From: Pecten maximus
Taxonomy: Eukaryota
Direction: 5' to 3'
Assembly: GCF_902652985.1 (NCBI RefSeq)
Contig: NC_047027.1
Location: 33,914,001 to 33,978,000 of the forward strand
Length of the DNA stretch: 64,000 nucleotides
The position numbers and the translations under genes were made by a program. Positions 7,601 to 61,630 of this stretch are shown in pieces. The stretch's first letter is position 1; every line of letters begins with the position of its first letter. The notes below the pieces were generated by a model. The model did no database searches. It had not been told where the DNA came from and saw nothing but the letters and a program-made list of their open reading frames with translations.

Positions 7601-10600
7601 TTCCAACCTCAGAATACTACACGTTGTAGACAACGTGAAGTTCCATCTGCATGTAATACTTCTGGAGCGAAGAACACAATGATCTTTACTTATACATGAT
7701 AATATGATAGTTTAATGTTGCTTGTAACCAGCATTTTCACTGGTTTGAAAAAAATGTTTCAACATTTACGCATAAAATGATATTGTCGTTTGTAACGTCA
7801 TTTTTGATGGGTGATAAAGTGGCATGATAATTTCTAAGAGAAAAAGAGTCCATTAATTAAGATAAATGTCATCGGAGTTTTGTAGAGAAGATCATGTCAC
7901 AACAAGTTGTAATTAATTAGCTGTAAAGCTAATGTTGGGAGTTAAAATCGCACTCACCTTGGGTAACTGTATGGATATCCAGGTGACGAGAGGTATTGTG
8001 TAGTTTCCGTAGCGATGATGTATATCTCTGATGCTTCATCACATATACAGTCTGCAAAACGGCAGTAAAATATAACAACGTTAATCGAGACATAGGGTTG
8101 TAATTATTCATTTTACCTGTATATCAATATCTACATGTTTGTAGGTGAATACGATGATTTATCAACCTGATTAAAATTTTATTTCCTTATGCCGAAGGTA
8201 GCAATAACAATGACTATTGTTTTATTATATAACATATCTTATCAGTCCCTAACCTTAGATTGGATAGACGTAACAGAAAAAATGGCGTATGATTGAAAGT
8301 TTGAAGTGAGAATTACAATAACATAATTTTAAACAAGCTCAGTTATAAATAATTCATTCATTTAAATCAATATTGTCTTAAAATCAACTAAATGGTTATA
8401 TGTAAATTATGTGTAACATGATTTCAAATGGAAGTTCATTTTGAAGCATGACGCTGTCAATCACTGTTTCATAAGACTCGATGTTGCAGCGCTTGGTTTT
8501 TAGGTAATTCCGGACAGTGAATAAAATCGATGTCGAGGAAAAGGGAAAAACACAGACGTATAATGATATGTTGTATTATGTCTTGCAAACGACATTTCTC
8601 CCGAATCATGTGAAAATCCCCCAAGGTGAAATATTACTTGAAAAGAATCCCTGGTATTCCAGTTTTCTCGATGGCAGGTAGTGTTGTTTACAATTATGTT
8701 TTATCCAATGCCTGCTTGCTTATTTAATCTATTTTACTAAGGAAACGGAGATTCCGGGACCTCGCATACACCCAACAATGATAGAGCATTTGAGCCGCCG
8801 GCTGGCATTTAGGTCCTTAAGGCATAAAAAATCAAAATTGAGTTTTTGGTATTTTCATAATTTAGAGATAATGGCGGTTAAATTGGTGTAAAAATAACTT
8901 TGGTGTGTCAATAACTGACGATTTGACGCTACATTGAATATATGTCGCATTTGGTATGCTAGATGACGTTGGCGTTAATAACGACGTCATTTTACCAGTG
9001 CCATTTTTGACGTCATTTTTTGCAACGTCATTTATCACAGACAGTTGCATAATGCTTTGCTGTTACAGGTCTTGAATTGAAGACTGTTATTTTGTAATTG
9101 TTATTATTATAATAATATATAATTTTTATCTATAGTCATTTAAAAAGAAAAAAGTCCTTTTTCAGTTGTCATGATTCATTTATTTACAAGGATAAAATTT
9201 GTGATTCACATATCAACTTGAACACAAACAAGTATCTTGCAATAAACAGGTAACATCCCTTGTAATTACACACAAAAACAATCAGTCACATCCCTTACAC
9301 ACAAAAACAATCAGTCACATCCCTTACCTAATACAAAAACAATCAGTCACATCCCTTACCTAATACAAAAACAATCAGTCACATCCCTTACCTAATACAA
9401 ATAACAATCATTTTATATTTTATTTGGTAGAAACAGATTGCAAAGTGAACTCCAGGACTCCATCAGGATTATATTGTTACAATTAATTACATGTAGTGTA
9501 AGAAGATAAAACATTTATTTTGAAATTGTATTTAACTGTATCCTAACAAGCAATGCTCATTTCATAATATAAAATAAAAGCATGAGTACAGTATTTAAGT
9601 TTTCATCAATAACAATTTTGATCTCAACTTTCAGTTCATTCTTCTGTGTGGGTGGGTCTAGAGGTGGGCTGTGGGACAGTGGGCAGGGGACATAGAAGGT
9701 CCTTAGACGGATCCTTTACAAAAGGCCTGATATTTTTGTACAGGTACCATGCACGTTCTGCGGAAAAACCTTTTGCCTCCAGTCTCACTGGCAAACCCTG
9801 TGGAATAATCTTTCCCCTCTTCACAAGCCTCACTGGCGTTGTCTCCCCGTCAACACCTTTTTTAACAGTAACCATTCCTGAAAGAAAGAAACAGGAATGG
9901 CATGTTGTAATTGAACTTAGTTTTGAAAGGGATACACATAAAAATCAAAAAACCTGTACAAAACCATTTTATTTTTAAATCGGATAAAAATTCTGCATGC
10001 CCCACATACCAAATACATCATTAGAATCAGACTCATAAATCTAGCGGAATTACCCATGGAGGTAATTGATAATGAAAGCGCAGTACATTATATAAATTAA
10101 ATGGATTGAAATATGTAAATATAGCAGTACATGTACCTGAAGTGGTGGAAGCAAAGTGAAAGTGATGGTATTTCCCAATACCAGGAACCGCTCTAAATAC
10201 AGGCTTGAAGAATTGTTTCCAGTCTCTCCAGATCCACGAATTTGGTGACATCTCACTGTATAAATCTGCCTGGTTATGTGTGGATGAAGCATGAATTGTC
10301 ATCTTCAGGTCAGACAAACTATCCACATCATTGCGTCTGATTTTCCTTCGGGCAATACCAAACATCCCATCCACAAGACAACGGGCATGATATGGCTTCA
10401 TGAAATGAAGATGGATGTCTTCATGATATCCATTTGCCACTCTCCAAGCCAGATAGCTTGTGACAACCTGAATCATAAAAAAATAAAATTAGGTTCATTG
10501 TATAAAGCAGTGTAAGAACCTGTATTATTAAGTTTATTATATTACTGGCCTGCTTTCTACTAGCATGTCAAAAATAAGACACCTGTATAATAACACTATT

Positions 10601-13600
10601 GTGACTTCACAATTACAAAATTTTGGAGAAATCGGAGATGAGTGGGTATCAACATTCAACAGCTTCAAAAATATGTAACTTATAATTTCATAATGATTAT
10701 GTAATGCTGAATAATTGTTTCAGTACAAAGAAACATACAGCCTGCTCCTTATATTTGCATAACTACCAGTTTTGTGATAAACAGAAACTTACACTGCTGA
10801 CTTTTTTGAATGAATTCAGTTCAACTTGGCAAATGATCTTAACTGATGTGCCACACTCCTTTAAGGTGTTTTCTTAACTCAACAACAAATATTCCATACC
10901 TGATTCTTATTTTGGCCACCACAATTGTCTGCATTCAAGTACACAGTTTTTTCTCCTTCCCCATGGTATTCGAAGAAGTGGTGTAACATAGATACAACAG
11001 CATTGGCCGAGTGGCTCTGGGCACCATCCAGACCAATGGACTGATCCTCGCCAAACAAATAATTTGTTTGCAGGGACCGACCATCATTGCAAATACCAAA
11101 TAGATTAGCTTTATATGGTGACCTGAAAGAAAAAGCTGTACAATATCAGAGAAGCATAGTGTTCAAGATCATTTCTTTTAATTTCAATCCGATATTTTTT
11201 TATTCTGATATTCAAGATTGAAACTTTACATCTTTAATACATGAATTACATTTTATGAAATATGATCCAATACTACAGAGATTTAATGGTTTTAAATGTA
11301 ACCTGTTTTACCTACTGCTTCTCCCTTTTAACAGACTTAAATTGTTTTTTACCTGAAGTACAAAGCTCCTTCCTGTCTGCAATGACTGGGCAGAAGTACA
11401 CTTTGAGCATAATCAAATGTGTAGTGGACATCATTTAGGTCCATGGAAGTTGGAGGAACAGGAACAGTAGACTTTGGATGACCCTGAAGACCTGCAATAG
11501 CAGCATGACATTTTTGTCGATAATGGTCTCTCTCCTTTTGGGCTGATGAAATGTGTTCTGCAAAGTCTGTGCTAGCCTCCATTTTATCTGCCTCAGTGAT
11601 GGCCTAGATACAATATATGTACAAAAATCTTATCTTAACATGTCATCAAAATGTTCTATATACATCGTACATACAAAATGTATATAATGAACCTATAAAA
11701 ATGTATAACAAGATGTTTAAAGCAATAAAAGTTTTCTTTGTAATTTTACTAATAAATTCATACCATTATTGTTATGAATGAATATGAATGTAGAATTATT
11801 ACAATATCACTATCTGTTTATCTAAAATTAGAACACAAATATATTAAGATATTTTGGTTTTAATGTCCATGGATATTAAATTAGACTTGTTTTGATTAGG
11901 TTCTTACCTTCTGTATCCGATTCCTAAAGGATTCACATTTGTGACATACATCTGTCTTGCAGGACATGAACTGGATGTGTGGGAGACACTGGTGCCATAT
12001 TCTTCTGAAAGTGGTCTCAGATAGGCATCGGTTTTCTGTTTCACTGTTGAAAATAGATATGTCACTAGATCATAAAATTGGAGGGTGACGATTATAAACA
12101 ATACTAAAACCAAATAATTCAATGTCATTTCCAAAGTTTGAAATATATTATTTTCATTTTAACAAATAATTTGGACAAATTCTAAGATATCTAGTGATGG
12201 AAGATAATTTATTAGCAGCTTGTTTGTGTTTATAATTAAAGCATACATAGTTAAAAAAAATATTCTTATAGCTAAACCAATTTATAAAGGCATTATTTCA
12301 AATGTTTTATGATTATAAATTAAATGTATCTGTAGACAATATTTAATTCATAACAGTGAAAATTGACACTGGTGTATCATGGATTGCTGTATGAATTGAT
12401 TACCAAGTACTTTTTTCATTATGAGGATAATACTTACATACATACTTGGCTGTATTTCTTATGGACAGATAGATAGGTTTCACTTCCAGGTAAATATATT
12501 GGTGGAAAGCTGTCCCGTCCACGTGGTGCAGCAGGTTGGGGCAATCCCATCTCATCTGCATACCTAACATATAAATGTAACTGCATTAAAAAATAATTAA
12601 CATCAAAATTCATTTCCAAATATCTCATTGTGCTGATAGTAAAATATGTATAATGGAAATTTCGAAACAGACAAGGTCTGTATCAAACTGTGACCTATTA
12701 CAATTGAATGTATGTAAATAAATAATATAGCTATTATACTTCAAAATACATGTACCCGGTATGTTTATATTTAATCAAGGTGACTTGAGATGATTTTTTT
12801 AAATTAAGTTTTGCACATGTTAAGTTAAATTACTAACAGTTGTATTATTTATTTATTTTTCCCCAGCAAAAGAGAACAAAATACAGACTGCACAGATAGT
12901 TTGATGTTAATCATGACATGCACGACAAGTATGAATATTCTACATACAGAACTATGGGTTTCATTTTAATTTTTTTTTTAATGTTAAATACCTGTGTATA
13001 AGTATACATACGGCACAGCACTTACCTTGAAATAAACTGGACAACTTGTTGAACATTATCATAGGTCACTGCATTTTTGGGTTTTTTCCCTGTATTTCCA
13101 TGTATCCGTGGAACAGCACCATTCTTGACGAAATGGGCCCTGATGTTTTTCAAGTAATGTGCATTTATGTTATTAACATAAAGGAAACAAGCCTTGCAAA
13201 CACTTGTGTTCTGGAATTGGTAGTCAAAGCGATGCCGTTTGACGTTAGTTTGACCATGTATTCCCCTTGTCATGCCACATGCCTGGAGCTGTCCAATAAT
13301 TAACATGTCCCTGCCATCTCTCTCCATTCCCTGCACATTCAATCTGTTATCTTTGATATCCATATTGGGAAATTTGGACAGACCCCTTCTTACATTTACC
13401 GAGTTATTTTCGTCGTCATCATCATCATCATCAACCTCGTTGTCATCACTACGTAGTGTGTCTTGATCAGAATCATTTTCTGTGTCCCTTTCAACGTCAT
13501 TTCTGATAAAAACTCTCATCCGAGTATGTAGAATCGGCGAATTAATAACGCTAATGCCGTTACTCACATCATCATCATCATTATCACTCTCGATGTCATA

Positions 13601-16600
13601 GTCAAAATCAACATCTTCATCCTGATTACCGGAGACAGAACTCACCTCTTCAGCTGTACCACAGGTGCCTGACTCGTTTTTATAAAATAATAACATATAG
13701 AGTACATATAAATGAGAAAGGTTCTGAACTCCCCCAGGCTTGAAATCTGATGTATTTATTTCTAAGTACCGTAGCTTCGGTTGTATTGGGTGGATTTTTT
13801 CGAAGTAGGACTTAAATTGAAGAGAAATGGTCAATCTTTAAAATAAGCCATAACATGTTGTCGATTTCTCGATATTAATTTACCAAATCGGGCGTGAAAC
13901 TTCAAAATCCCCTCGATTTTGTTTAGTCGGACAAGTTGACGTAACGGGGTCACCACACTTTGACTCTATTGGACATAGCTTTAAATACGAAGTCCATGGG
14001 TTAATCACGAGGTACGCTTCATCAGATCACCGAATACAACTATTACATACACTTACTTTATGTATACGAGCACCCTATCGACGGCCCCGGGACATTTTAT
14101 GCATACTGATAGCAGATTTTCCACTTGAGTAGCCATGTTGTGTCAGCCGCGGTAAATTTGAACAAGCATTCTGATTGGTTATAGAAAATGTGTTGAACCA
14201 ATCAGAATGCTTGTTCAAATTTACCGCGGCTGACACAACATGGCTACTCAAGTGGAAAATCTGCTATCAGTATGCATAAAATGTCCCGGGGCCGTCGATA
14301 GGGTGCTCGTATACATAAAGTAAGTGTATGTAATAGTTGTATTCGGTGATCTGATGAAGCGTACCTCGTGATTAACCCGTGGACTTCGTATTTAAAGCTA
14401 TGTCCAATAGAGTCAAAGTGTGGTGACCCCGTTACGTCAACTTGTCCGTCTAAACAAAATCGAGGGGATTTTGAAGTTTCACGCCCGATTTGGTAAATTA
14501 ATATCGAGAAATCGACAACATGTTATGGCTTATTTTAAAGATTGACCATTTCTCTTCAATTTAAGTCCTACTTCGAAAAAATCCACCCAATACAACCGAA
14601 GCTACGGTACTTAGAAATAAATACATCAGATTTCAAGCCTGGGGGAGTTCAGAACCTTTCTCATTTATATGTACTCTATATGTTATTATTTTATAAAAAC
14701 GAGTCAGGCACCTGTGGCTGTACCACTGTTTACCCGACTTGTACACGGAAAGAAATGGCTAAAATCATCGTCTATCTCACTTGCTAAATCGTTATCACAC
14801 CCGACTACGTTAAAATTTGGCGGAAGAGACATCATATACGATTTCTTGATGCGTTAGACCTAAACACTCCCATCTGCCATCTTCGTAGCGAATGTAAACA
14901 ACTACGTAAATACCGGAAGTGTGTTCGGCAGAAAACGGGGAAACCCCATTCGCGTCAATATTTTTGTTGAATAAACACTTTTATTTACATTTACCGTTAA
15001 TGTTATTGAATGGAAAATTAACAGACATATCTAAAGTTTAAGGACAGGTATTTAAAGTTCATCTATAACAAAGTATATCAGCTGCATTTTGTGTTTTTGC
15101 AACGCAAGTGGGATTCCCGTTTTCGCGCGAAACGGAAATAGAATGGAAATAATAACTCTGACGGAATTCCCTTTTTTCTCCGTTTTCATTGGATAGAACT
15201 TAAGGACCTAAATGCCAGCCGGCGGCTCATTTGTGGCCCAACTAGCTTTCAAGCTTATCACTATACTGACAGAGTGAAAAGGGAGGTAACTCTGTTGAAT
15301 GAGCATATCCGTAGGTGCTGATTAGATAATTGTTTAATATCATCACGAACCCATACCTATTCCTTTTTTAATAACATTTTTTTATAGTGTAAGATTGACT
15401 TTATTACTATTCAGTAATGCCCTAAATCAACGGCATCATTTTGATGATTCTTGAATTAAAAGATGTCCATCTGTCACCAGAAATGCTAGCTACTGAGAAC
15501 ATTGATAGACTCAATTAGTTAATACAAAAACAATTAAGAATATCGACATGATAACAATGGTAAGAAGTAAATATCGATGTTACATATCATTTGTATGGCA
15601 AGATTTGCTTCATTTGAATATGGATATTGTTCGGAATATGTAATTGATGCTCTGTCGAAACCTTAAATTGAAAATTCTGAAAAATAAATTTATGATCTTT
15701 TGCAACTCCTGATGAACATTTGGACATTTCTTTGGATAATCTAGTCTATATAGTTACGAACGCCTCCTAGGCTTCACAACTTTAGGCCCTTAATATTACT
15801 GAATGATTCCATGATGACAAAACAACCGTATGGTGCAGTTTATTTCAATTTTCGCTCTTATGTTTATACAGTATCAAACTCCAAATTTATACTGAAATGA
15901 GATAATGTATTGTTTTTTCTTCAATATATTTTAAAAGCACGAATAGAAAAATATCACAGTGAAATGAACCAAACATACCTTCCTCCTCATATGATATGTT
16001 AAAACCTCTGCCGACGATACCGCCATCTGATGTGAACAAGATTGTAACGTCCTTGCTTGGAATTACACGTACTTTAGGGGAAGACATTTGAAGGATTTCT
16101 CTCTCGGTATCTAGTAAATATTTGAAGACTTATTTCGATAATAAATATATCTACTTATTGACAGTCTTAAACTTTATGCACAGAATAATGTGAAATATAA
16201 AAAATGAATTCTGTAGAATTAATCATTTCCGATTGCAAATCGTGCCAAAATGCTGATTATCCAATAACGAGCTCACGAAAACTGGTACTACTGTCGTGGC
16301 GTTTTTAACGTTATAACGATTTTGATGCAAAACAAAATCAGCATGGACCTGTATATAATGTTGGTGGGATTAAGACACAACATTGCTTATAATAACATTG
16401 CCTAGAAGATTTTCGGAGAAACCCTTCTTTTTTTTTTTTTTTTATTATTTTCAAAAATCATCATTACATACCGTATGTTAATATGGCGTGGTCGTAATTG
16501 TGTTCGAGATCAAATGACATGATCTCAATGCGTATCAGGCCACAAGCATTTTTGTCGGATATTCTCCAATAACACTGGCGATTGCTGTTGATATATATAT

Positions 16601-23349: not shown

Positions 23350-24077
23350 ATTACATCAAAGCCTTGATATTGACAAGCCTTGATATTGACAAGCCTTGAT
23401 ATTGACAGGCATTGATATTGACAAGCCTGGATATTGACAGGCCTTGATATTGGCAGGCCTTGATATTGACAAGCCTTGATATTGACAAGCCTTGATATTG
23501 ACAAGCCTTGATATTGACAGGCCTTGATATTAACAAGCCTTGATATTGACAGGCCTTGATATTGACAGGCCTTGATATTGACAAGCCACGATATTGACAA
23601 GCCTTGATATTGACAGGCATTGATATTGACAAGCCTTGATATTGACAAGCCTTGATATTGACAGGCATTGATATTGACAGGCATTGATATTGACAAGCCT
23701 TGATATTGACAAGCCTTGATATTGACAGGCCTTGATATTGACAAGCCACGATATTGACAAGCCTTGATATTGACAGGCCTGATATTGACAGGCCTTGATA
23801 TTGACAGGCATTGATATTGACAAGTCTTGATATTGACAGGCCTTGATATTGACAGGCCTTGATATTGACAAGCCACGATATTGACAAGCCTTGATATTGA
23901 CAAACCTTGATATTGACAGGCCTTGATATTGAAAGGCCTTTATATTGACAAGTCTTGATATTGACAGGCCTTGATATTGACAGGCCTTGATATTGACAGG
24001 CCTTAATATTGACCGCCTTGATGTTGACAGGCCTTGATATTTACAGGCCTTGATATTGACCGCCTTGATGTTGACAA
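23350..24077. repeat. 16-bp minisatellite (about 45 units)
   Basis: GCCTTGATATTGACA(A/G) tandem. Confidence 0.95.
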
Positions 24078-25426
24078 GTGTTCGTATCTAATTATAAACA
24101 AACAATGCATCATATAAACAAAGAGGGGAAATCATGTGACTTATAATAATTGCACATTGTTTGGGTCAAATATTACACTGCCGTGACTCAAACTTCCGTT
24201 TATAATACGACAATTGCATATTTATGTCTCTTATGACGGAAATGTTAAACAGAATGAACTCGTCTATGTCGTTGTGAACATGATTGTAGCAAGCACTTTA
24301 ATATCCATTGTTGTATATTACTGAATGACGCCGGCGGGCGGCTGGGAAACTCCTTCAGACCGATACTCAAATATACTGCAATGCCAGATATTACCAATGA
24401 AGTCTAGAGAGAGTAATAAATGATTACAAATTAGAGAAAAAAATTCTAAAATTAATAGTGATTGATAGAACCCCCCTCCCCCCCCCCCCCCAAAAAAAGC
24501 AAAAAACTTAAGCAGATAACTTTACTAGTATTCCACGCTCACCTTGAAGCGACGGTCTTCGGCGACAAATCCTCTCATGGCAACCCTCGCGAATCTCAGT
24601 TAAAATTGGTACACACATAACGTTATGCTGTGAAGAGTAGGGATGTAGTTGAGTAAAGTAGGACAAACAGTCACTGCTCTTTGTTCGCATATAGATAATT
24701 CGATTAATTAAATTATTCCCCTATTGTATATCTTTATTTGTTTAAGATATTGGTGTCGTTATACCTACAGTATATAATCTATGTTTAAAATAACAAATTA
24801 TATATGGAAATAACAAACAAATAAAAAATAAAAAAACAAAAAAAAAAAAAAAAAAAAAACCCAAAACCCCCCAAAACCCAACAAGCAACAGAAGAACTTA
24901 AACAAATAATTTGACTAGTGTTTAACGCACACCTTCAAGGGACGATTATCGGCACACAATCATTTGAGAGAAATCCTCGTAAATCACATTGGAAATTGTA
25001 TAATTGTTTTGTATATATCGAAATAATCAAATATATCACCTGAATACTAAGGGGCTACGACAGCGACATTAAACAAATTTACTTCCAAACCCCTTTGGCT
25101 TGACTAGACTTAATTCATTGCGTTTTGTTAATGATACATTGCAATGATAAAAAAACGACCATCTCTCGAACAAACTGATATAAAATATCATCTACGCTGT
25201 TGTAGGCAGACATCCGTATACCTATCATAGACCGATTACCATTGTACATCCAAGGTGTAACACTACCGTTGTTTACCTATAAGCAGTACCGAACAATCCA
25301 ATGATCAGATGAGGTGAATGCGAGCCGTGCGGAAGCAGAGAAAAATGACTGCTAAGGAAATGAGTTGATAGTTTAGCATAAGTATTTAAAAAGGAGTTCA
25401 GTCGGGGAATAGCGACCATTTTGAAC

Positions 25427-32222: not shown

Positions 32223-32334
32223 TTATGAAGATCATATATGCTTACTGACATTATTTTATAGATCATATTTATCAACGAAGACTAATAGCTTAAAGTACAA
32301 ATCATATTTCTAAAGTAAGCTAATTGTAAAGATC

Positions 32335-34860
32335 ATATGTATCCACTAAGCTTATTATACAAAGCATATGTATCCACTAAGCTTATTACACAGAGCATAT
32401 ATATCCACTAAGCTTATTATACAAAGCATATGTATACACTAAGCTTATTATACAAAGCATATGTATCCACTAAGCTTATTATACAGAGCATATGCATCCA
32501 CTAAGCTTATTACACAGAGCATATATATCCACTAAGCTTATTATACAAAGCATATGTATACACTAAGCTTATTATACAGAGCATATGTATCCACTAAGCT
32601 TATTATACAGAGCATATGTATCCACTAAGCTTATTATACAAAGCATATGTATCCACTAAGCTTATTATACAGAGCATATATATCCACTAAGCTTATTATA
32701 CAAAGCATATGTATACACTAAGCTTATTATACAAAGCATATGTATCCACTAAGCTTATTATACAAAGCATATGTATCCACTAAGCTTATTATACAGAGCA
32801 TATGTATCCACTAAGCTTATTATACAAAGCATATGTATACACTAAGCTTATTATACAAAGCATATGTATCCACTAAGCTTATCATACAAAGCATATGTAT
32901 CCACTAAGCTTATCATACAAAGCATATGTATCCACTTAGCTTATTATACAAAGCATATGTATCCACTAAGCTTATTATACAAAGCATATGTATACACTAA
33001 GCTTATTATACAGAGCATATGTATCCACTAAGCTTATTATACAAAGCATTGTATCCACTAAGCTTATTATACAAAGTATATGTATCCACTAAGCTTATTA
33101 TACAGAGCATATGTATCCACTAAGCTTATCATACAAAGCATATGTATCCACTAAGCTTATCATACAAAGCATATGTATCCACTAAGCTTATTATACAGAG
33201 CATATGTATCCACTAAGCTTATTATACAGAGCATATATATCCACTAAGCTTATTATACAAAGCATATGTATCCACTAAGCTTATTATACAAAGCATATGT
33301 ATCCACTAAGCTTATCATACAAAGCATATGTATCCACTAAGCTTATTATACAAAGCATATGTATCCACTAAGCTTATTATACAGAGCATATGTATCCACT
33401 AAGCTTATTATACAAAGCATATGTATCCACTAAGCTTAGTATTCAAAGCATATGTATCCACTAAGCTTATTATACAGAGCATATGTATCCACTAAGCTTA
33501 TTATACAAAGCATATGTATCCACTAAGCTTATTATACAGAGCATATGTATCCACTAAGCTTATTATACAGAGCATATATATCCACTAAGCTTATTATACA
33601 AAGCATATATATCCACTAAGCTTATTATACAAAGCATATATATCCACTAAGCTTATTATACAGAGCATATGTATCCATTAAGCTTATTATACAGAGCATA
33701 TGTATCCACTAAGCTTATTATACAGAGCATATATATCCACTAAGCTTATTATACAGAGCATATGTATCCACTAAGCTTATTATACAAAGCATATGTATCC
33801 ACTAAGCTTATTATACAAAGCATATGTATCCACTAAGCTTATTATACAGAGCATATGCATCCACTAAGCTTATTACACAGAGCATATATATACACTAAGC
33901 TTATTACACAGAGCATATATATACACTAAGCTTATTATACAAAGCATATGTATCCACTAAGCTTATTATACAAAGCATATGTATCCACTAAGCTTATTAT
34001 ACAGAGCATATGTATCCACTAAGCTTATTATACAAAGCATATGTATCCACTAAGCTTATTATACAGAGCATATATATCCACTAAGCTTATTATACAAAGC
34101 ATATGTATCCACTAAGCTTATTATACAGAGCATATATATCCACTAAGCTTATTATACAAAGCATATGTATCCACTAAGCTTATCATACAAAGCATATGTA
34201 TCCACTAAGCTTATTATACAAAGCATATGTATCCACTAAGCTTATCATACAAAGCATATGTATCCACTAAGCTTATTATACAAAGCATATGTATCCACTA
34301 AGCTTATCATACAAAGCATATATATCCACTAAGCTTATTATACAGAGCATATGTATCCACTAAGCTTATTATACAAAGCATATGTATCCACTAAGCTTAT
34401 CATACAGAGCATATGTATCCACTAAGCTTATTATACAGAGCATATGTATCCACTAAGCTTATTATACAAAGCATATGTATCCACTAAGCTTATTATACAG
34501 AGCATATGTATCCACTAAGCTTATTATACAGAGCATATATATCCACTAAGCTTATTATACAAAGCATATGTATACACTAAGCTTATTATACAGAGCATAT
34601 GTATCCACTAAGCTTATTATACAGAGCATATGTATCCACTAAGCTTATTATACAGAGCATATGTATCCACTAAGCTTATTATACAGAGCATATGTATCCA
34701 CTAAGCTTATTATACAAAGCATATGTATCCACTAAGCTTATTATACAGAGCATATGTATCCACTAAGCTTATTATACAAAGCATATGTATCCACTAAGCT
34801 TATTATACAGAGCATATGTATCCACTAAGCTTATTATACAGAGCATATGTAGCTACTAAG
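32335..34860 (+). repeat. 31-bp satellite downstream of lectin copy 1 (about 80 units)
   Basis: Unit GTATCCACTAAGCTTATTATACA(A/G)AGCATAT; degenerate units continue to about 35830. Confidence 0.95.
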
Positions 34861-35030
34861 TGTATTATATAGATTATTATATATTCGATATATATCATTA
34901 TAGCTTATTACAAATATTAATTGACAGCTTAATATACAGATGATATGTAGCAACTTAGTAAATTCTACATATCATACTTATCCACTAAGGTAATTATACA
35001 GATCATATATACAAACTAATCTTATCATAC

Positions 35031-45585: not shown

Positions 45586-46509
45586 TGTATCCCTGCGAAA
45601 TTAAAAAAAGAACATTTAAAACTAAATTAATCTGCTTACAAAAACATCAGAAACCGAAATTCTCACTCAAAATCTATAAAATTAATTTATACATAAACAC
45701 AACATATCGATTTGCAGGAATAGCATTGGAAATAATCAAGTATAGTATAGAATAGTTGCATGCAGATTGGTAAACAAAATAGTACATGAAAATAAAATAA
45801 ATATATATATATATAAAATGTGGAATAAACCAAGGATTTTTTTTATCATCATTTATTATCAATGGAATCATGTCATATATATATATATCCTTTGTTTTAT
45901 TGAACATCGTGATGATATTTAAAAAACGTAGATTTTGTTTGAGCTATTATCCGGAACAAAGTTTCGCATGGACGGATACGCTATTCACTGCCAAGCCGCC
46001 ATCTGCATACGACTGCGTCGATTTTAGAATACTAAAAGTGTAGATTGAATAAGCAAAGCAATATGGCGTGAATAATTAATCTACTGCACTGAGGCACGAC
46101 GTCAGTTTCATGGTTTTACAACAGTTCAATATTTAGACAATATGCCAGAACCATGATCCGTTTGATAACGAATACATTATAAGCCTTTACATTGCTACGT
46201 GAAAGTACACGTCACTATCGTAGTCTTTGTATTTCGCTTGAGTTATCCGTTTTCGTTGTCACTATGCCATACAATATTTATATTGTCATATTTTGTGGCA
46301 GTTATTGGCTGATAACGCCAACTGGACAAAGGCAAATTTAACGATTCGCACTAGCGCTTCATTTTAAAGGTGCGTTTTCAAGCAATGTAAATCCCATAGG
46401 TGTCGACCAGAATAATGTTTACAGATAGAAACTACTCACCGTTACATTGCTTTGTTCCGTAACCGTGACTCTACATTTAACTCAATTTAATCGATAATGC
46501 CATTGCCTT

Positions 46510-47607
46510 ACTAACTAATAACGTAACTTAAATACTAAACTAATAACGTAACTTAACTACTAAAATAATAACGTAACTTAACTACTAAAATAATAAAACG
46601 TAACTTAACTACTAAACTAATAACGTAACTTAACTACTAAAATAATAACGTAACTTAACTACTAAAATAATAAAACGTAACTTAACTACTAAACTAATAA
46701 CGTAACTTAACTACTAAAATAATAAAACGTAACTTAACTACTAAACTAATAACGTAACTTAACTACTAAAATAATAACGTAACTTAACTACTAAACTAAT
46801 AACGGAACTTAACTACTAAACTAATAACGTAACTTAACTACTAAACTAATAACGTAACTTAACTACTAAAATAATAACGTAACTTAACTACTAAACTAAT
46901 AACGTAACTTAACTACTAAACTAATAACGTAACTTAACTACTAAAATAATAACGTAACTTAACTACTAAAATAATAAAACGTAACTTAACTACTAAACTA
47001 ATAACGTAACTTAACTACTAAATAATAACGTAACTTAACTACTAAACTAATAACGTAACTTAACTACTAAACTAATAACGTAACTTAACTACTAAAATAA
47101 TAACGTAACTTAACTACTAAAATAATAAAACGTAACTTAACTACTAAACTAATAACGTAACTTAACTACTAAAATAATAACGTAACTTAACTACTAAACT
47201 AATAACGTAACTTAACTACTAAAATAATAACGTAACTTAACTACTAAATTAATAACGTAACTTAACTACTAAAATAATAACGTAACTTAACTACTAAACT
47301 AATAACGTAACTTAACTACTAAACTAATAACGTAACTTAACTACTAAAATAATAACGTAACTTAACTACTAAACTAATAACGTAACTTAACTACTAAACT
47401 AATAACGTAACTTAACTACTAAAATAATAACGTAACTTAACTGCTAAACTAAGAACGTAACTTAACTACTAAACTAATAACGTAACTTAACTACTAAACT
47501 AATAACGTAACTTAACTACTAAACTAATAACGTAACTTAACTACTAAACTAATAACGTAACTTAACTACTAAACTAATAACGTAACTTAACTACTAAACT
47601 AAGAACG
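46510..47607. repeat. 25-bp minisatellite (about 43 units)
   Basis: (C/A)TAATAACGTAACTTAACTACTAAA tandem. Confidence 0.95.
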
Positions 47608-55349: not shown

Positions 55350-56670
55350 ATACAGATCATGTGTATCCAATAAGCTTATTACACACATCATATCATATGT
55401 ATTCAGTAAGTTTGATATATAGATCATATGTATTCAGTAAGTTTATTATATAGATCATACGTATCCAGTAAGTTTATTATATATATAATATGTATTCAGT
55501 AAGTGTATTATATAGAGCATATGTATTCAGTAAGTTTATTATATAGATCATATGTATTCAGTAAGTTTATTATATAGATCATATGTATCCAGTAAGTTTA
55601 TTATATATATAATATGTATTCAGTAAGTGTATTATATAGAGCATATGTATTCAGTAAGTTTATTATATAGATCATATGTATTCAGTAAGTTTATTATATA
55701 GATCATATGTATCCAGTAAGTTTATTATATAGATCATATGTATTCAGTAAGTTTATTATATAGATAATATGTATTCAGTAAGTTTATTATATAGAGCATA
55801 TGCATTCAGTAAGTTTATTATATAGATCATATGTATTCAGTTAGTTTATTATATAGATAATATGTGTTCAGTAAGTTTATTATATAGAGCATATGTATTC
55901 AGTAAGTTTATTATATAGATCATATATATTCAGTAAGTTTATTATATAGATCATATGTATTCAGTAAGTTTATTATATAGATCATATGTATTCAGTAAGT
56001 TTATTATACAGATAATATGTATTCAGTAAGTTTGTTATACAGATCATATGTATTCAGTTAGTTTATTATATAGATCATATGTATTCAGTAAGTTTATTAT
56101 ATAGAGCATATGCATTCAGTAAGTTTATTATATAGATCATATGTATTCAGTTAGTTTATTATATAGATAATATGTGTTCAGTAAGTTTATTATATAGAGC
56201 ATATGTATTCAGTTAGTTTATTATATAGATCATATGTATTCAGTAAGTTTATTATATAGAGCATATGCATTCAGTAAGTTTATTATATCGATCATATGCA
56301 TTCAGTAAGTTTATTATATAGATCATATGGATTCAGTAAGTTTATTATATAAATCATATGTATTCAGTAAGTTTATTATATAGATCATATGTATTCGGTA
56401 AGTTTATTATATAGATAATATGTATTCGGTAAGTGTTTTATATAGATCGTATATATTCAGTAAGTTTATTATATAGAGCATATGTATCCACTTAGTTTAT
56501 TATATAGAGCATATGTATTCAGTAAGTTTATTATATAGATCATATGTATTCAGTTAGTTTATTATATAGACCATATGTATTCAGTTAGTTTATTATATAG
56601 ACCATATATATTCAGTAAGTTTATTATATATATCATATGTACCCAGAAAACTTATTATACATATCATATA
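55350..56670 (+). repeat. 31-bp satellite downstream of lectin copy 2 (about 40 units)
   Basis: Unit GTATTCAGTAAGTTTATTATATAGATCATAT, homologous to the copy-1 satellite. Confidence 0.95.
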
Positions 56671-57032: not shown

Positions 57033-60000
57033 AGGTTGCGCATGCGCTACTTGACGGACGTCTTTCTCTTCCTGCTCGGTAAGGTATCTGTTTTCTAACC
57101 AATTTAACGCTTTCTACTTCGTATTTTTTCTCCACACTTCGCCACCATCAATTTTACATCCCCAACAGCTCTACTTTATCTACTTATACCCCAACCCTCC
57201 CTGCCCTAGCTACTCGAAATCCCCTTTCTTTCGTCTCTGAACCAATTCATATTTCCCGCCATCTTCCTTAGGTATTCTATCAACATCCGGTTTACCACCG
57301 CGACTCCCACACACAGGTAAGACCATGAAAATTGCATTCAAAACATTCACCACAGCTCTCTTTATTTTCTGGTTAGTTAACAAAGCATCACAACTTCACA
57401 CAAACAAATTCCACACATACAATGACGCAACTACATCTCAACCCGACACACACGTAACGCTAGCAATCTGTCCGACACTCACCACTAGACTAAAACACAA
57501 AATAATAAGACCTAGCTGCAACTACCTATTCATCCTCCTACTCTCCATATCTGCAGACACTGAATCAAACCCCGGTCCAAGGGCTCCCAGGTACCCCTGT
57601 GGGTCGTGTGGGAAGGCAGTCTCTTGGAAATCCAGCGCAATATGCTGTGATACATGCAATACTTGGTTCCATGTAGACTGCCAAGGAATGAATAGGTCAT
57701 TCCTTAAGTACTACACGCCCATTGATGTGTCCTGGGAGTGCCTGAACTGTGGCATGCCAACTTTATCATCGACACTCTTTGACAACAACACAACAAACAC
57801 ATCCAACAGATTTAAAAATCTTAGCACCATATCAGACGACCCTACCAGCCCAGGAATACACACAGCATCCTCATCCCCCATAAAAACCCATACTAACTGT
57901 ACACAAACCAACAAATTCACAACACCAATCAGAATAGCTACAATCAATTTCCAATCTATATCAAACAAAAACATGACCTAGACGAACTCATACACACACT
58001 CAAACCAGATATGATAATTGGTACAGAAACATGGTTAAACAACTCCATATCTTCACACGAGTACTTCCCAATCGATCAGTACAATGTTTACATGGGCCAG
58101 CATCACAATGTCCAACTCACATAACCTCATAATAACATCATATTATAGGCCACCTTCAGACAAAGGCACCTCACCCCAACAACTAGAAATTTCCATGCAC
58201 AGACTCAACGCAAACAACAACAACAACAACACAATCACATACATCGGTGGTGATTTTAATCTCCAACACATAGACTGGCAGTCACACCAAACCATAACAG
58301 GTAAACCAGACCAAATCCAACACCAACACTTACTTGACATCATAGCTGACAACTCGCTCACCCAAACCACAAACATACCTACACGTGGTGACCACATACT
58401 TGAACTCGGACTAACTAACAGACCATCTAAAGTAAACAAGACAGAGACAGCACCACCCATTGGCAAAGCAGACCACGACATAATATACACAGAAATAGAT
58501 GTAAGACTGAAAAGAACATGCAAACAACCACGACACATATACACCTACCACAAAGCCAATTGGGACAACATAAAAGAACTTGATATTACACTTAACCAAC
58601 AGACTGACAAAACAGCAAACGACATGTGGAACACATTTAAATCGACACTCCACGAATCAGTAAGCAAAAACATACCTCAAAAACTCCTGACCTACGAATA
58701 CCGACTTCCATGGATGACACACCCCCTCCGTTGCCTCATAAAGCAGTCCAAACGTCTACACTCTAAAAGCCGCACTAACTACCATCTCACACAAAAATAC
58801 AAAACCATAAAAGCAGAAGTACAGAAACAAACACGCAACGCATACCTAAACTACATAGAAAAAATGATCAAAGACATACCCATAAACGAACCAGACTCCC
58901 CACACTCCAACCGAAAATACAACCCCAAAACACTATTCTCTTACATCAAAACCACAAGAAAAGAAAACACCGACATCACATCCCTTCGTAAAGACGGACA
59001 TCTCACTACAGACCCAACCATAAAAGCAAACATTCTCAATCATGAATTTCAAGCCGCATTCACAACAGAACAGAACAACAATATACCAGACAAAGGACCA
59101 TCGCCAAACCCCACCATGCCATAAATCCACATTACACGCAACGGAGTAGACAAATTACTAGGATACATAAATCCCCACAAAGCGACAGGACCTGACCAAA
59201 TACACGGCACAATTCTCAAACAGCTCAAAGACTCCATAGCACCCATACTCACAAAAATCTTCAACACTTCACTCAGCTCAGGGACACTACCACACGACTG
59301 GAAACACGCAAATGTAAACCCAATATACAAGAAAGGAGACAAACACAACCCCACTAACTACCGCCCAATCTCACTCACCTGCATTGCATGCAAAATCATG
59401 GAACACATCATCACAAGCGCTACAATGAAACATCTAGAGGACAATAACATACTCTACAACCTCCAACACGGCTTCCGCTCCTCTAGATTATGTGAAACAC
59501 AACTCGCCACATTCATACACGACCTAACACTAAATAACAATACAAACAAACAGACAGACATTGTCATAATGGACTTTGCCAAAGCATTTGACAAAGTCCC
59601 ACACAAACGCCTCCAGTACAAACTCAAATACTACGGGATTACAGGGAACACACTCACATGGATTACAGACTTTCTAACACACCGCACCCAAACAGTATTA
59701 CTTGAAGGGAAACAATCGGACAAAGTCCAAGTCACTTCAGGAGTACCTCAAGGAACCTGTTTGGGCCCCATACTCTTCCTCATATACATTAACGACCTAC
59801 CAGACTACATCAAACACAGCACTCTCAGACTCTTTGCCGACGATAGCATCATCTACAAGACAATCCACAACACAGACGACGCACACAAATTACAACAAGA
59901 CATAAACGCAGCAGGACAGTGGGAACAAGACTGGCTCATGAAAGTTCACCCAAACAAATGCAATATCATATCCACTTCAAACAAATGCACCAAAACAACA

Positions 60001-60827
60001 TACAACTACAAACTTCACGACCACACACTGCAACAAGTCGACGCCAGCAAATATCTAGGACTCACATTACAGAAAAATCTCAAATAGGACACACACATCA
60101 ACAACATCACTGAAAACGCCAGCAGATCACGAGGCTTCCTAAAACGCAACCTGAAAATAAACTCACAACATATAAAAGAACATGCATACAAAGCCCTAGT
60201 GAAACCCAAACTGGAATACTGCTCTTCCATATGGGACCCGCACAACACAAACCAAATCAACCAGATAGAAAAAATACAACGCAGAGCAGCACGATACGTA
60301 CAAAACTGATACCACAACACAAGTTCAGTACAAGACATGATGGATAAACTCAACTGGCCCACACTTCAAACATGCAGACTCAAGACCAGACTTATACTAC
60401 TATACAAAATCATTCACCATCATGTCGCAATAGACCCACACGGCATCATGCACCCAGCAGACCCTAGGACAAGGCAAACACACCCCTACACCTTCAGACA
60501 CCTATCTGCCACCAATGACATATACAAATACTCCTTTTTCCCACACACAATAACACAATGGAACCTCCTCCCAGTGGCAGCAGTACAATGCACTACACTA
60601 GAGATCTTCAAGGCACATACACACAATGCAGCCCTTGATGATCTCAAGCATACACCGTAAACACACCCTCATGTTTTTATCTTATAGTTTCCACTAAAAA
60701 AAAAACACTTAAAAAAAACCCCTCTCACTGTAACTAAATTCCCTCACTTTTTTAACAGCATCCAACCTAGCTACAAACTAACCGTAATCGTCATTTTTGA
60801 CGGAGGTTGTACCAAGAAAAAGAAGAA
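57033..60827 (+). mobile_element. Full-length, inactivated APE-type non-LTR retrotransposon (CR1/L2/RTE-X-like): leader-2A-PHD-endonuclease-RT
   Basis: TSD GACTGTT (57026-57032, 60828-60834); (AAG)n tail; ORF from 57325 with PHD (CGSC..CCDTCNTWFHVDC..WECLNC), APE (GTETWL, YRPP, GDFN, DHD) and RT (DFAKAFDKV, GVPQG, LFADD). Broken by frameshifts near 57980 and 58090 and in-frame stops at 59122, 60085 and about 60308. Confidence 0.93.
57325..60660 (+). pseudogene. LINE polyprotein (PHD, apurinic endonuclease, reverse transcriptase), disrupted
   Basis: ORF-track pieces 57325-57981, 58084-59124, 59398-60087 and 60337-60660 are consecutive parts of one polyprotein. Confidence 0.9.
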
Positions 60828-61338: not shown

Positions 61339-61630
61339 TGACGTAGTACGTGATGTACTTTGTGACGTAGTACGTGATGTACTTTGTGACGTAGTACGTG
61401 ATGTACTTTGTGACGTAGTGCGTGATGTACTTTGTGACGTAGTACGTGATGTACTTTATGACCTAGTACGTGATGTACTTTGTGACGTAGAACGTGATGT
61501 ACTTTGTGACGTAATACATGATGTACTTTGTGACGTAGTATGTGATGTACTTGATGACGTAGTACGTGATGTACTTTGTGACGTAGTACGTGATGTACTT
61601 TGTGACGTAGTACGTGATGTACTTTGTGAT
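61339..61630. repeat. 24-bp minisatellite (12 units)
   Basis: GACGTAGTACGTGATGTACTTTGT tandem. Confidence 0.95.

What the first reader, a model, noticed from the sequence alone, without database searches (positions are those of the whole stretch)
8788..15232. Young, complete, intron-containing Sola1 transposon invisible in the ORF track
Seen: perfect TIRs and TSD, and seven exons that splice to an unbroken 684-aa DDD transposase. Established: Sola1 has AWWT TSDs and DNCxGQNKN-type motifs. The third motif is atypical (PYHARCLVD rather than GHxxxxxD) and the GAG..CTC ends resemble Sola2/3. Inference: a possibly undescribed, recently active subfamily that could be reconstituted directly.
Basis: partly seen in the sequence, partly recalled or inferred. 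Interest (0 to 1): 0.7.

Follow-up and report, generated by a model that had tools for sequence, protein, structure and literature searches.

The report
Young spliced Sola1 transposon, disabled copy
This is one broken copy of a young family of cut-and-paste jumping genes in a scallop-type genome: a second small element has landed in its enzyme gene, but four near-identical copies elsewhere are intact, the family's gene is spliced in RNA data, and those copies likely still move it.

Summary
The element is real: perfect 30-bp TIRs, an ATTT duplication and seven exons, with all six introns seen as joints in public run contigs. This copy is not complete. A 1057-bp palindromic MITE with a 7-bp duplication sits in coding exon 1 and stops the frame at codon 44. 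The 684-aa protein appears only once the MITE is skipped, and two private deletions also remove conserved cysteines. The family is young: eight copies differ by 0.1-1.1%, and four sisters carry intact 690-692-aa ORFs. Sola1 is well supported: AWWT duplications in 10 of 11 two-ended copies, a DDD RNase-H fold, Sola2 motifs absent, and TIR homology to curated bivalve Sola1 elements. No Sola1 reference protein could be scored directly. Both 'atypical' features are ordinary. PYHARCLVD changes only G to Y, keeps H-x5-D and is shared by 11 of 166 homologues. GAG ends occur in a curated Sola1. The 684-aa protein is already on record as an uncharacterized Pecten maximus protein; the family is absent from the one bivalve library checked. 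The scan noted intron-rich Sola-like elements before in other genomes. Verdict: new member of a known kind.

The parts
8788..8791 (.). Left 4-bp target-site duplication ATTT
8792..8821 (+). Left TIR, 30 bp (3' end of the gene)
   Evidence: 30 of 30 identical to the right TIR
9243..9410 (.). Minisatellite of 29/32-bp units downstream of the stop codon; expanded to 2-3 kb in sisters L010 and L011
9636..9877 (-). Exon 7, with stop codon
   Evidence: joint 9876/10136 in 2 of 8 runs
10137..10467 (-). Exon 6: PYHARCLVD, third catalytic Asp D527 (10369-10371); DUF7869 hit
   Evidence: joint 10465/10898 in 8 of 8 runs
10900..11122 (-). Exon 5: ADNCGGQNKN, second catalytic Asp D485 (10927-10929)
   Evidence: joint 11120/11351 in 4 of 8 runs
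11353..11603 (-). Exon 4: HYTFD, first catalytic Asp D400 (11412-11414)
   Evidence: joint 11602/11907 in 7 of 8 runs
11908..12043 (-). Exon 3: conserved DVCxxC
   Evidence: joint 12043/12438 in 6 of 8 runs
12438..12563 (-). Exon 2
   Evidence: joint 12560/13023 in 3 of 8 runs
13026..13659 (-). Exon 1, 3' part: acidic tract and Cys-rich helical domain; carries two window-private deletions (19 nt near 13400, 2 nt near 13381) that remove conserved cysteines
13653..13659 (.). 7-bp duplication GCTGTAC of the MITE (repeated at 14717-14723)
13660..14716 (.). Nested 1057-bp palindromic MITE (521-bp arms, 15-bp spacer, CAC..GTG ends); puts a stop at codon 44 of the transposase
14724..14835 (-). Exon 1, 5' part, from the ATG
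15199..15228 (-). Right TIR, 30 bp (5' end of the gene)
15229..15232 (.). Right 4-bp target-site duplication ATTT

Best explanation
This is a disabled copy of a young, spliced and transcribed family of cut-and-paste DNA transposons, likely Sola1, whose intact sisters would supply the transposase. Shown: 30-bp TIRs, 4-bp AWWT duplications, a six-intron gene, near-identical dispersed copies and four intact ORFs. Predicted: an RNase-H fold with the three Asp at the canonical positions. Inferred mechanism: the spliced transposase binds the TIRs, probably through its N-terminal Cys-rich helical region. It excises the element and inserts it with a 4-nt stagger into AT-rich, often ATATAT-centred targets; repair of the donor site raises the copy number. 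This copy first lost 21 nt including two conserved cysteines, then took a 7-bp-TSD MITE into exon 1. It keeps perfect ends and could still be moved in trans.
For: TIR and TSD. Thirty TIR matches in the genome form 11 two-ended copies and 8 lone ends. Exact 4-bp TSDs, all AWWT, in 10 of 11 two-ended copies. Eight copies differ by 0.08-1.14%, and 4 of 11 modelled sisters have open 690-692-aa ORFs with the MITE site empty. All six introns appear as joints in runs from 6 studies. AlphaFold model pLDDT 90, with D173, D258 and D300 of P0001 at the end of strand 1, the end of strand 4 and the start of the last helix; best structural matches are integrase and mariner cores (Z 10.0, rmsd 3.0, 133 aligned). 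Between families in the genome pS is about 0.8 and pN 0.21-0.30. The TIR of sister family L046 (19 of 30 identical to ours) shares a 17-mer at the same offset with curated Sola1_A.kagoshimensis_21 (compared by eye). L001 and L002 share a stop yet differ by 0.08% and each has its own TSD, which fits mobilisation in trans. The run X7 contig carries the window's deletions without the MITE, which orders the two lesions.
Against: No Sola1 reference transposase or HMM could be scored; the link between the DNCxGQNKN and GH-x5-D motifs and Sola1 is recalled, and Bao 2009 and Yuan & Wessler 2011 were not readable. AWWT duplications also occur in some Sola2 families. Only 2 of the 8 runs laid are on record as RNA, and all are contigs. 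Present-day activity rests on one contig at depth 3.3. Intact sister L004 has mismatched TSDs. The N-terminal domain has only weak structural matches (best Z 4.4), so its role in DNA binding is inferred.
Confidence: 0.85

Rival explanations
1. The window copy is itself functional because the MITE is removed as an intron (an introner-like or non-canonical splice).
For: The identical 684-aa protein is on record. Contigs in 7 of 8 runs skip exactly 1064 nt. Several in-frame GT..AG pairs exist near the MITE ends.
Against: The exact skip has no GT..AG ends. In six of the seven runs that skip it, the contigs carry sister-type bases and the 21 nt that the window lacks, so they come from MITE-free copies. 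The seventh (X7) differs from the window at 14792, on the same contig 75 nt from the joint, so it is likely another allele. None of the in-frame GT..AG variants was seen as a joint. The lost cysteines would remain lost.
Confidence: 0.05
2. The element belongs to a distinct new Sola subgroup, or to a Sola2/3-like lineage, defined by the YH motif and GAG ends.
For: Nine of 10 YH-x5-D proteins form one well-supported branch (SH-aLRT 100, quick tree). It includes bivalve proteins of Pecten and Tegillarca.
Against: The branch is one of many among 5956 representative proteins with E<=0.001 and differs by one non-catalytic residue. Sola2 signatures are absent. Curated Sola1 elements begin GAC, GTG or GAG, one of them GAGCCGC. 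The tree has no named Sola references and no true root.
Confidence: 0.07
3. The family is recently extinct: the copies are young but no longer transpose, and the transcripts are read-through or residual.
For: Seven of 11 sisters and the window copy are broken. No direct test of mobility exists.
Against: Four intact ORFs; spliced transcripts in several studies; a slight synonymous excess among young copies (10 of 24 variants, p=0.02, weak); a candidate insertion absent from the assembly.
Confidence: 0.3
4. It is a domesticated host gene family, as the 'uncharacterized protein' annotation might suggest.
For: Eighteen named records in the cluster; introns; transcription.
Against: Each copy lies between TIRs and its own TSD at unrelated sites; introns vary about as much as exons among young copies (2.4% against 2.1% variable columns); many copies are broken.
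Confidence: 0.01

Closest known systems
Curated bivalve Sola1 families (PMC10294476, Additional file 31; e.g. Sola1_A.kagoshimensis_21, Sola1_S.grandis_34). Seen: passages, section 23, and the first few hundred bases of each library entry.
   Same: Length (5373 bp without the MITE; their mean 5445 bp); termini (GAGCCGC in S.grandis_34; a 17-mer shared at the same offset between kagoshimensis_21 and sister family L046); bivalve hosts.
   Different: None of the 22 P. maximus entries is a Sola, and our TIR start was not found in the visible text. Their pipeline needs a 300-aa ORF, whereas here the catalytic core is split over three exons. Internal sequences were cut from view and could not be compared.
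Sola superfamily / Sola1 (Bao et al. 2009, not readable; described in passages of PMC3845634 and PMC10741241)
   Same: DDD transposase, 4-bp TSD, AWWT preference, 2-9 kb size, short TIRs.
   Different: G to Y before the conserved His of motif 3 (the motif as a Sola1 mark is recalled); six introns.
Pfam DUF7869 (PF25273) proteins, including XP_033758564.1 (P0199) and Argopecten irradians P0216
   Same: P0199 is letter-identical to the 684-aa model; P0202, P0209 and P0210 equal sisters L004, L003 and L005; P0216 is 80% identical.
   Different: They are annotated as uncharacterized host proteins, not as transposases; no held paper contains 'DUF7869'.
Galileo / P-superfamily foldback elements (PMC4168063, passages), for the nested MITE
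   Same: 7-bp TSD, very long TIRs, TSD profile with T at position 2 and A at position 6 (30 of 42 in both orientations), resembling GTANTAC.
   Different: No coding partner was found, so the assignment is by structure only.

Membership tests
Sola1 | 4-bp TSD with AWWT preference (PMC3845634) | tested here: met
   10 of 11 two-ended copies: ATAT x8, ATTT, AAAT; L004 mismatched
Sola1 | Terminal inverted repeats | tested here: met
   30 bp, perfect
Sola1 | DDD triad in an RNase-H fold | tested here: met
   The three Asp are 98%, 91% and 98% conserved in 50-53 aligned rows; predicted fold and matches
Sola1 | Termini homologous to curated Sola1 elements | tested here: met
   L046 TIR shares a 17-mer at the same offset with Sola1_A.kagoshimensis_21; ours is 19 of 30 identical to L046 and shares its first 7 nt with Sola1_S.grandis_34 (compared by eye)
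Sola1 | Best hit or tree placement with reference Sola1 transposases | not testable with these tools
   No reference sequences were available
Sola1 | DNCxGQNKN and GH-x5-D motifs (recalled signature) | tested here: inconclusive
   Motif 2 is exact; motif 3 is YH-x5-D; the signature itself comes from recall
Sola2 | DFxENY, SDGxxxQYKN and SHGKxxCD motifs (PMC3627910 Additional file 10, part 1 read) | tested here: not met
   Ours reads TFDYAQ, ADNCGGQNKN and PYHARCLVD
Sola3 | TTAA TSD and long TIRs (recalled) | tested here: not met
   0 of 11 copies have TTAA; the TIR is 30 bp
Autonomous element (window copy) | Uninterrupted transposase gene with conserved residues | tested here: not met
   Stop at codon 44 inside the MITE; conserved cysteines deleted
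P superfamily / Galileo-like (nested MITE) | 7-8-bp TSD and long TIRs | tested here: met
   18 of 20 fetched copies had both ends, and all 18 have 7-bp TSDs; one long copy has 8 bp
P superfamily / Galileo-like (nested MITE) | Cognate P-type transposase between the same ends | tested here: inconclusive
   Three long copies hold nested retroelement or helicase pieces or no long ORF; 12 of 44 PF21787 loci, with about 1.5-kb flanks only, showed no MITE match

The most novel reading that the evidence does not exclude
The four intact, spliced sister copies are a currently active Sola1 family that is still inserting in the population, giving a ready natural substrate for a first functional and structural study of a Sola transposase. 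My searches found no excision or transposition assay of a Sola element, and the fold searches found no close solved relative.
Probability: 0.3. Interest if true: 0.55.

Novelty: new member of a known kind. Interest (0 to 1): 0.3.

Why it matters
Sola transposases appear to lack mechanistic study in the literature I could search. A compact family with four intact, spliced, near-identical copies and a defined AT-rich target is a practical starting point for one. The case also shows how intron-split transposases escape ORF-based transposon curation and end up annotated as uncharacterized host genes (DUF7869). This locus itself is the wrong copy to study: it is a nested, twice-damaged member.

Tried and rejected
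Bao 2009 and Yuan & Wessler 2011 were not held. The Majorek 2014 supplement file 2 (cut when stored; file 1 not searched) had no Sola1 entries. The bioRxiv supplements of 2021.09.26.461848 are closed and may hold Sola reference sets. Library entries in PMC10294476 were visible only in their first few hundred bases. MITE-as-intron was rejected. The search for the MITE's autonomous partner failed. The N-terminal domain fold search gave only weak helix-turn-helix-like rows (best Z 4.4; SETMAR DNA-binding domain Z 3.9, rmsd 2.5, 55 aligned; no Foldseek hit with E<=0.001). One loose-end flank in runs X1/X2 was simply the end of L004, not a new insertion. No empty-site joint was seen for the window insertion, but the runs barely cover the flanks. 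The careful tree did not finish, so the quick tree was used; 67 of 197 proteins were left out for lacking a motif or enough flank. The look-up of earlier findings by sequence returned nothing.

Full report
Observation. The element spans 8792-15228 between identical 30-bp TIRs, with ATTT on both sides. Seven minus-strand exons with GT..AG introns give 684 aa and one stop, but only if 13660-14723 is skipped. That stretch is a 1057-bp near-perfect palindrome flanked by a 7-bp duplication, inside coding exon 1. Read as it stands, the frame ends at codon 44.

Splice model. Eight runs from six studies were laid on the element, all as contigs; only two are on record as RNA. The six introns appear as joints in 3, 6, 7, 4, 8 and 2 of 8 runs for introns 1 to 6. 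The model protein is letter-identical to P0199 (XP_033758564.1, on record as an uncharacterized Pecten maximus protein), and P0202, P0209 and P0210 equal my models of sisters L004, L003 and L005. Pfam gives only DUF7869 over its cut-off.

Family. The genome holds 30 TIR matches with up to two mismatches: 11 two-ended copies and 8 lone ends. Eight copies differ by 0.08-1.14% and three older ones by 2.4-4.3%. Of 11 sisters modelled, four (L003, L004, L005, L009) have open 690-692-aa ORFs. L001 and L002 share one stop and are 0.08% apart, and the rest are frameshifted, interrupted or truncated. None of the nine that cover the site carries the MITE. Ten of 11 two-ended copies have exact 4-bp TSDs, all AWWT and mostly ATAT within ATATAT; L004 has ATAT/AATT. 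One is a 624-bp non-autonomous derivative (L071).

Damage to this copy. Besides the MITE, the window copy lacks 19 nt and 2 nt that the sisters have. The frame is restored after a few codons, but CKKGC is lost. These cysteines are present in 96% and 85% of 27 aligned rows. A contig of run X7 carries both deletions and four of five nearby window-private bases but no MITE, so the deletions came first and the MITE is likely polymorphic. The other six runs that skip the MITE show sister-type sequence. MITE splicing is therefore not supported.

Protein and mechanism. The AlphaFold model of P0001 (pLDDT 90) places the three conserved Asp at the end of strand 1, the end of strand 4 and the start of the last helix of an RNase-H fold. 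The best matches are integrase and mariner cores (Z 10.0, rmsd 3.0, 133 aligned) and TnsB/IstA. The N-terminal Cys-rich domain folds confidently (pLDDT 90) but has only weak matches, so TIR binding by it is inferred. Related families in the genome show saturated synonymous sites (pS about 0.8) and pN of 0.21-0.30. I infer ordinary cut-and-paste transposition with a 4-nt staggered cut at AT-rich targets, supplied in trans by the intact copies.

Current activity. One contig (run X9, depth 3.3) joins 169 nt of the element's end to a repeat flank. That flank occurs at 10 places in the assembly, none next to a TIR, and one of three fetched shows an empty ATATAT target. This suggests an insertion absent from the assembly, but it is a single contig.

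Classification. Sola2 motifs, read from a published alignment (PMC3627910 Additional file 10, part 1), are absent. AWWT is called a Sola1 hallmark (PMC3845634 passage), though it also occurs in some Sola2 families. A second family in the genome (L046, about 56-64% aa identity) has TIRs 19 of 30 identical to ours. It shares a 17-mer at the same offset with curated Sola1_A.kagoshimensis_21, and Sola1_S.grandis_34 begins GAGCCGC like ours (PMC10294476 Additional file 31; compared by eye). Curated bivalve Sola1 elements average 5445 bp; this element without the MITE is 5373 bp. No reference Sola1 protein could be scored, so membership is well supported but indirect.

The 'atypical' motif. Among 197 proteins, 166 had motif 2; of these 141 have GH-x5-D and 11 have YH-x5-D. 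Nine of the 10 YH rows in a 130-row quick tree form one branch. It is a small subclade with one non-catalytic change within a large family (5956 representatives with E<=0.001).

Novelty. None of the 22 P. maximus entries in the curated bivalve library is a Sola, and that pipeline requires a 300-aa ORF. Repbase and Dfam could not be searched. Paper searches found nothing on DUF7869 and, from the listings, no functional assay of a Sola element; subscription papers are not covered. Earlier notes of this scan report intron-rich Sola-like elements in other animals (not checked). PMC12477816 (passages) describes a giant Sola1 with an accessory gene, unlike this compact element.

Nested MITE. It is a separate young family: 18 fetched top hits are 98.8-99.4% identical to the window copy, and its 14-nt end occurs 751 times against 4 for the control. 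Its 7-bp TSDs resemble those of Galileo (PMC4168063 passages). It is likely of the P superfamily; no partner was found.

Verdict. A real, young, spliced, likely Sola1 family that seems uncurated, represented here by a twice-damaged copy. New member of a known kind; interest 0.3.

Noticed in passing
window 13660-14716: Young palindromic 1057-bp MITE family with 7-bp TSDs, Galileo/P-like, with hundreds of ends in the genome and about 100-bp short derivatives; autonomous partner not found.
   Followed up: partly
L046:1950-7311 (G000:C16:13931949 onward); L072 with L045; L047: A second Sola1-type family with AATT, AAAT and ATAT flanks. It lacks our introns 4 and 5 and has an extra intron near residue 312, so introns are gained or lost between related families. 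L048 (73% in exon 6) appears to keep our intron positions.
   Followed up: partly
L004:401-6000: Intact sister with mismatched TSDs (ATAT/AATT), a possible recombinant or adjacent deletion; truncated copy L006 lies 2 Mb away on the same contig.
   Followed up: no
window 9243-9410; L010, L011: The minisatellite inside the element's 3' region expands from about 5 units to 2-3 kb in some sisters and is far deeper in run contigs than the rest of the element.
   Followed up: no
L054 (G000:C2:50586458): Empty ATATAT site in a repeat that matches the flank of a possible non-assembly insertion seen in run X9.
   Followed up: partly
window 57241-60657 (+): Broken LINE-type endonuclease and reverse-transcriptase frames (motifs recognised by eye).
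   Followed up: no
window 23359-24078, 32334-34869, 46509-47607, 55392-56641, 61339-61629: Several long tandem arrays (16, 31, 25, 31 and 24-bp units), and a dispersed repeat of about 210 bp with at least five copies (3259, 26661, 37081, 39934, 49948).
   Followed up: no
L041, L043: Long MITE copies carry nested inserts in their centre: a two-ORF LINE-like element (L041) and a Pif1-like helicase fragment (L043), both recognised by eye.
   Followed up: no
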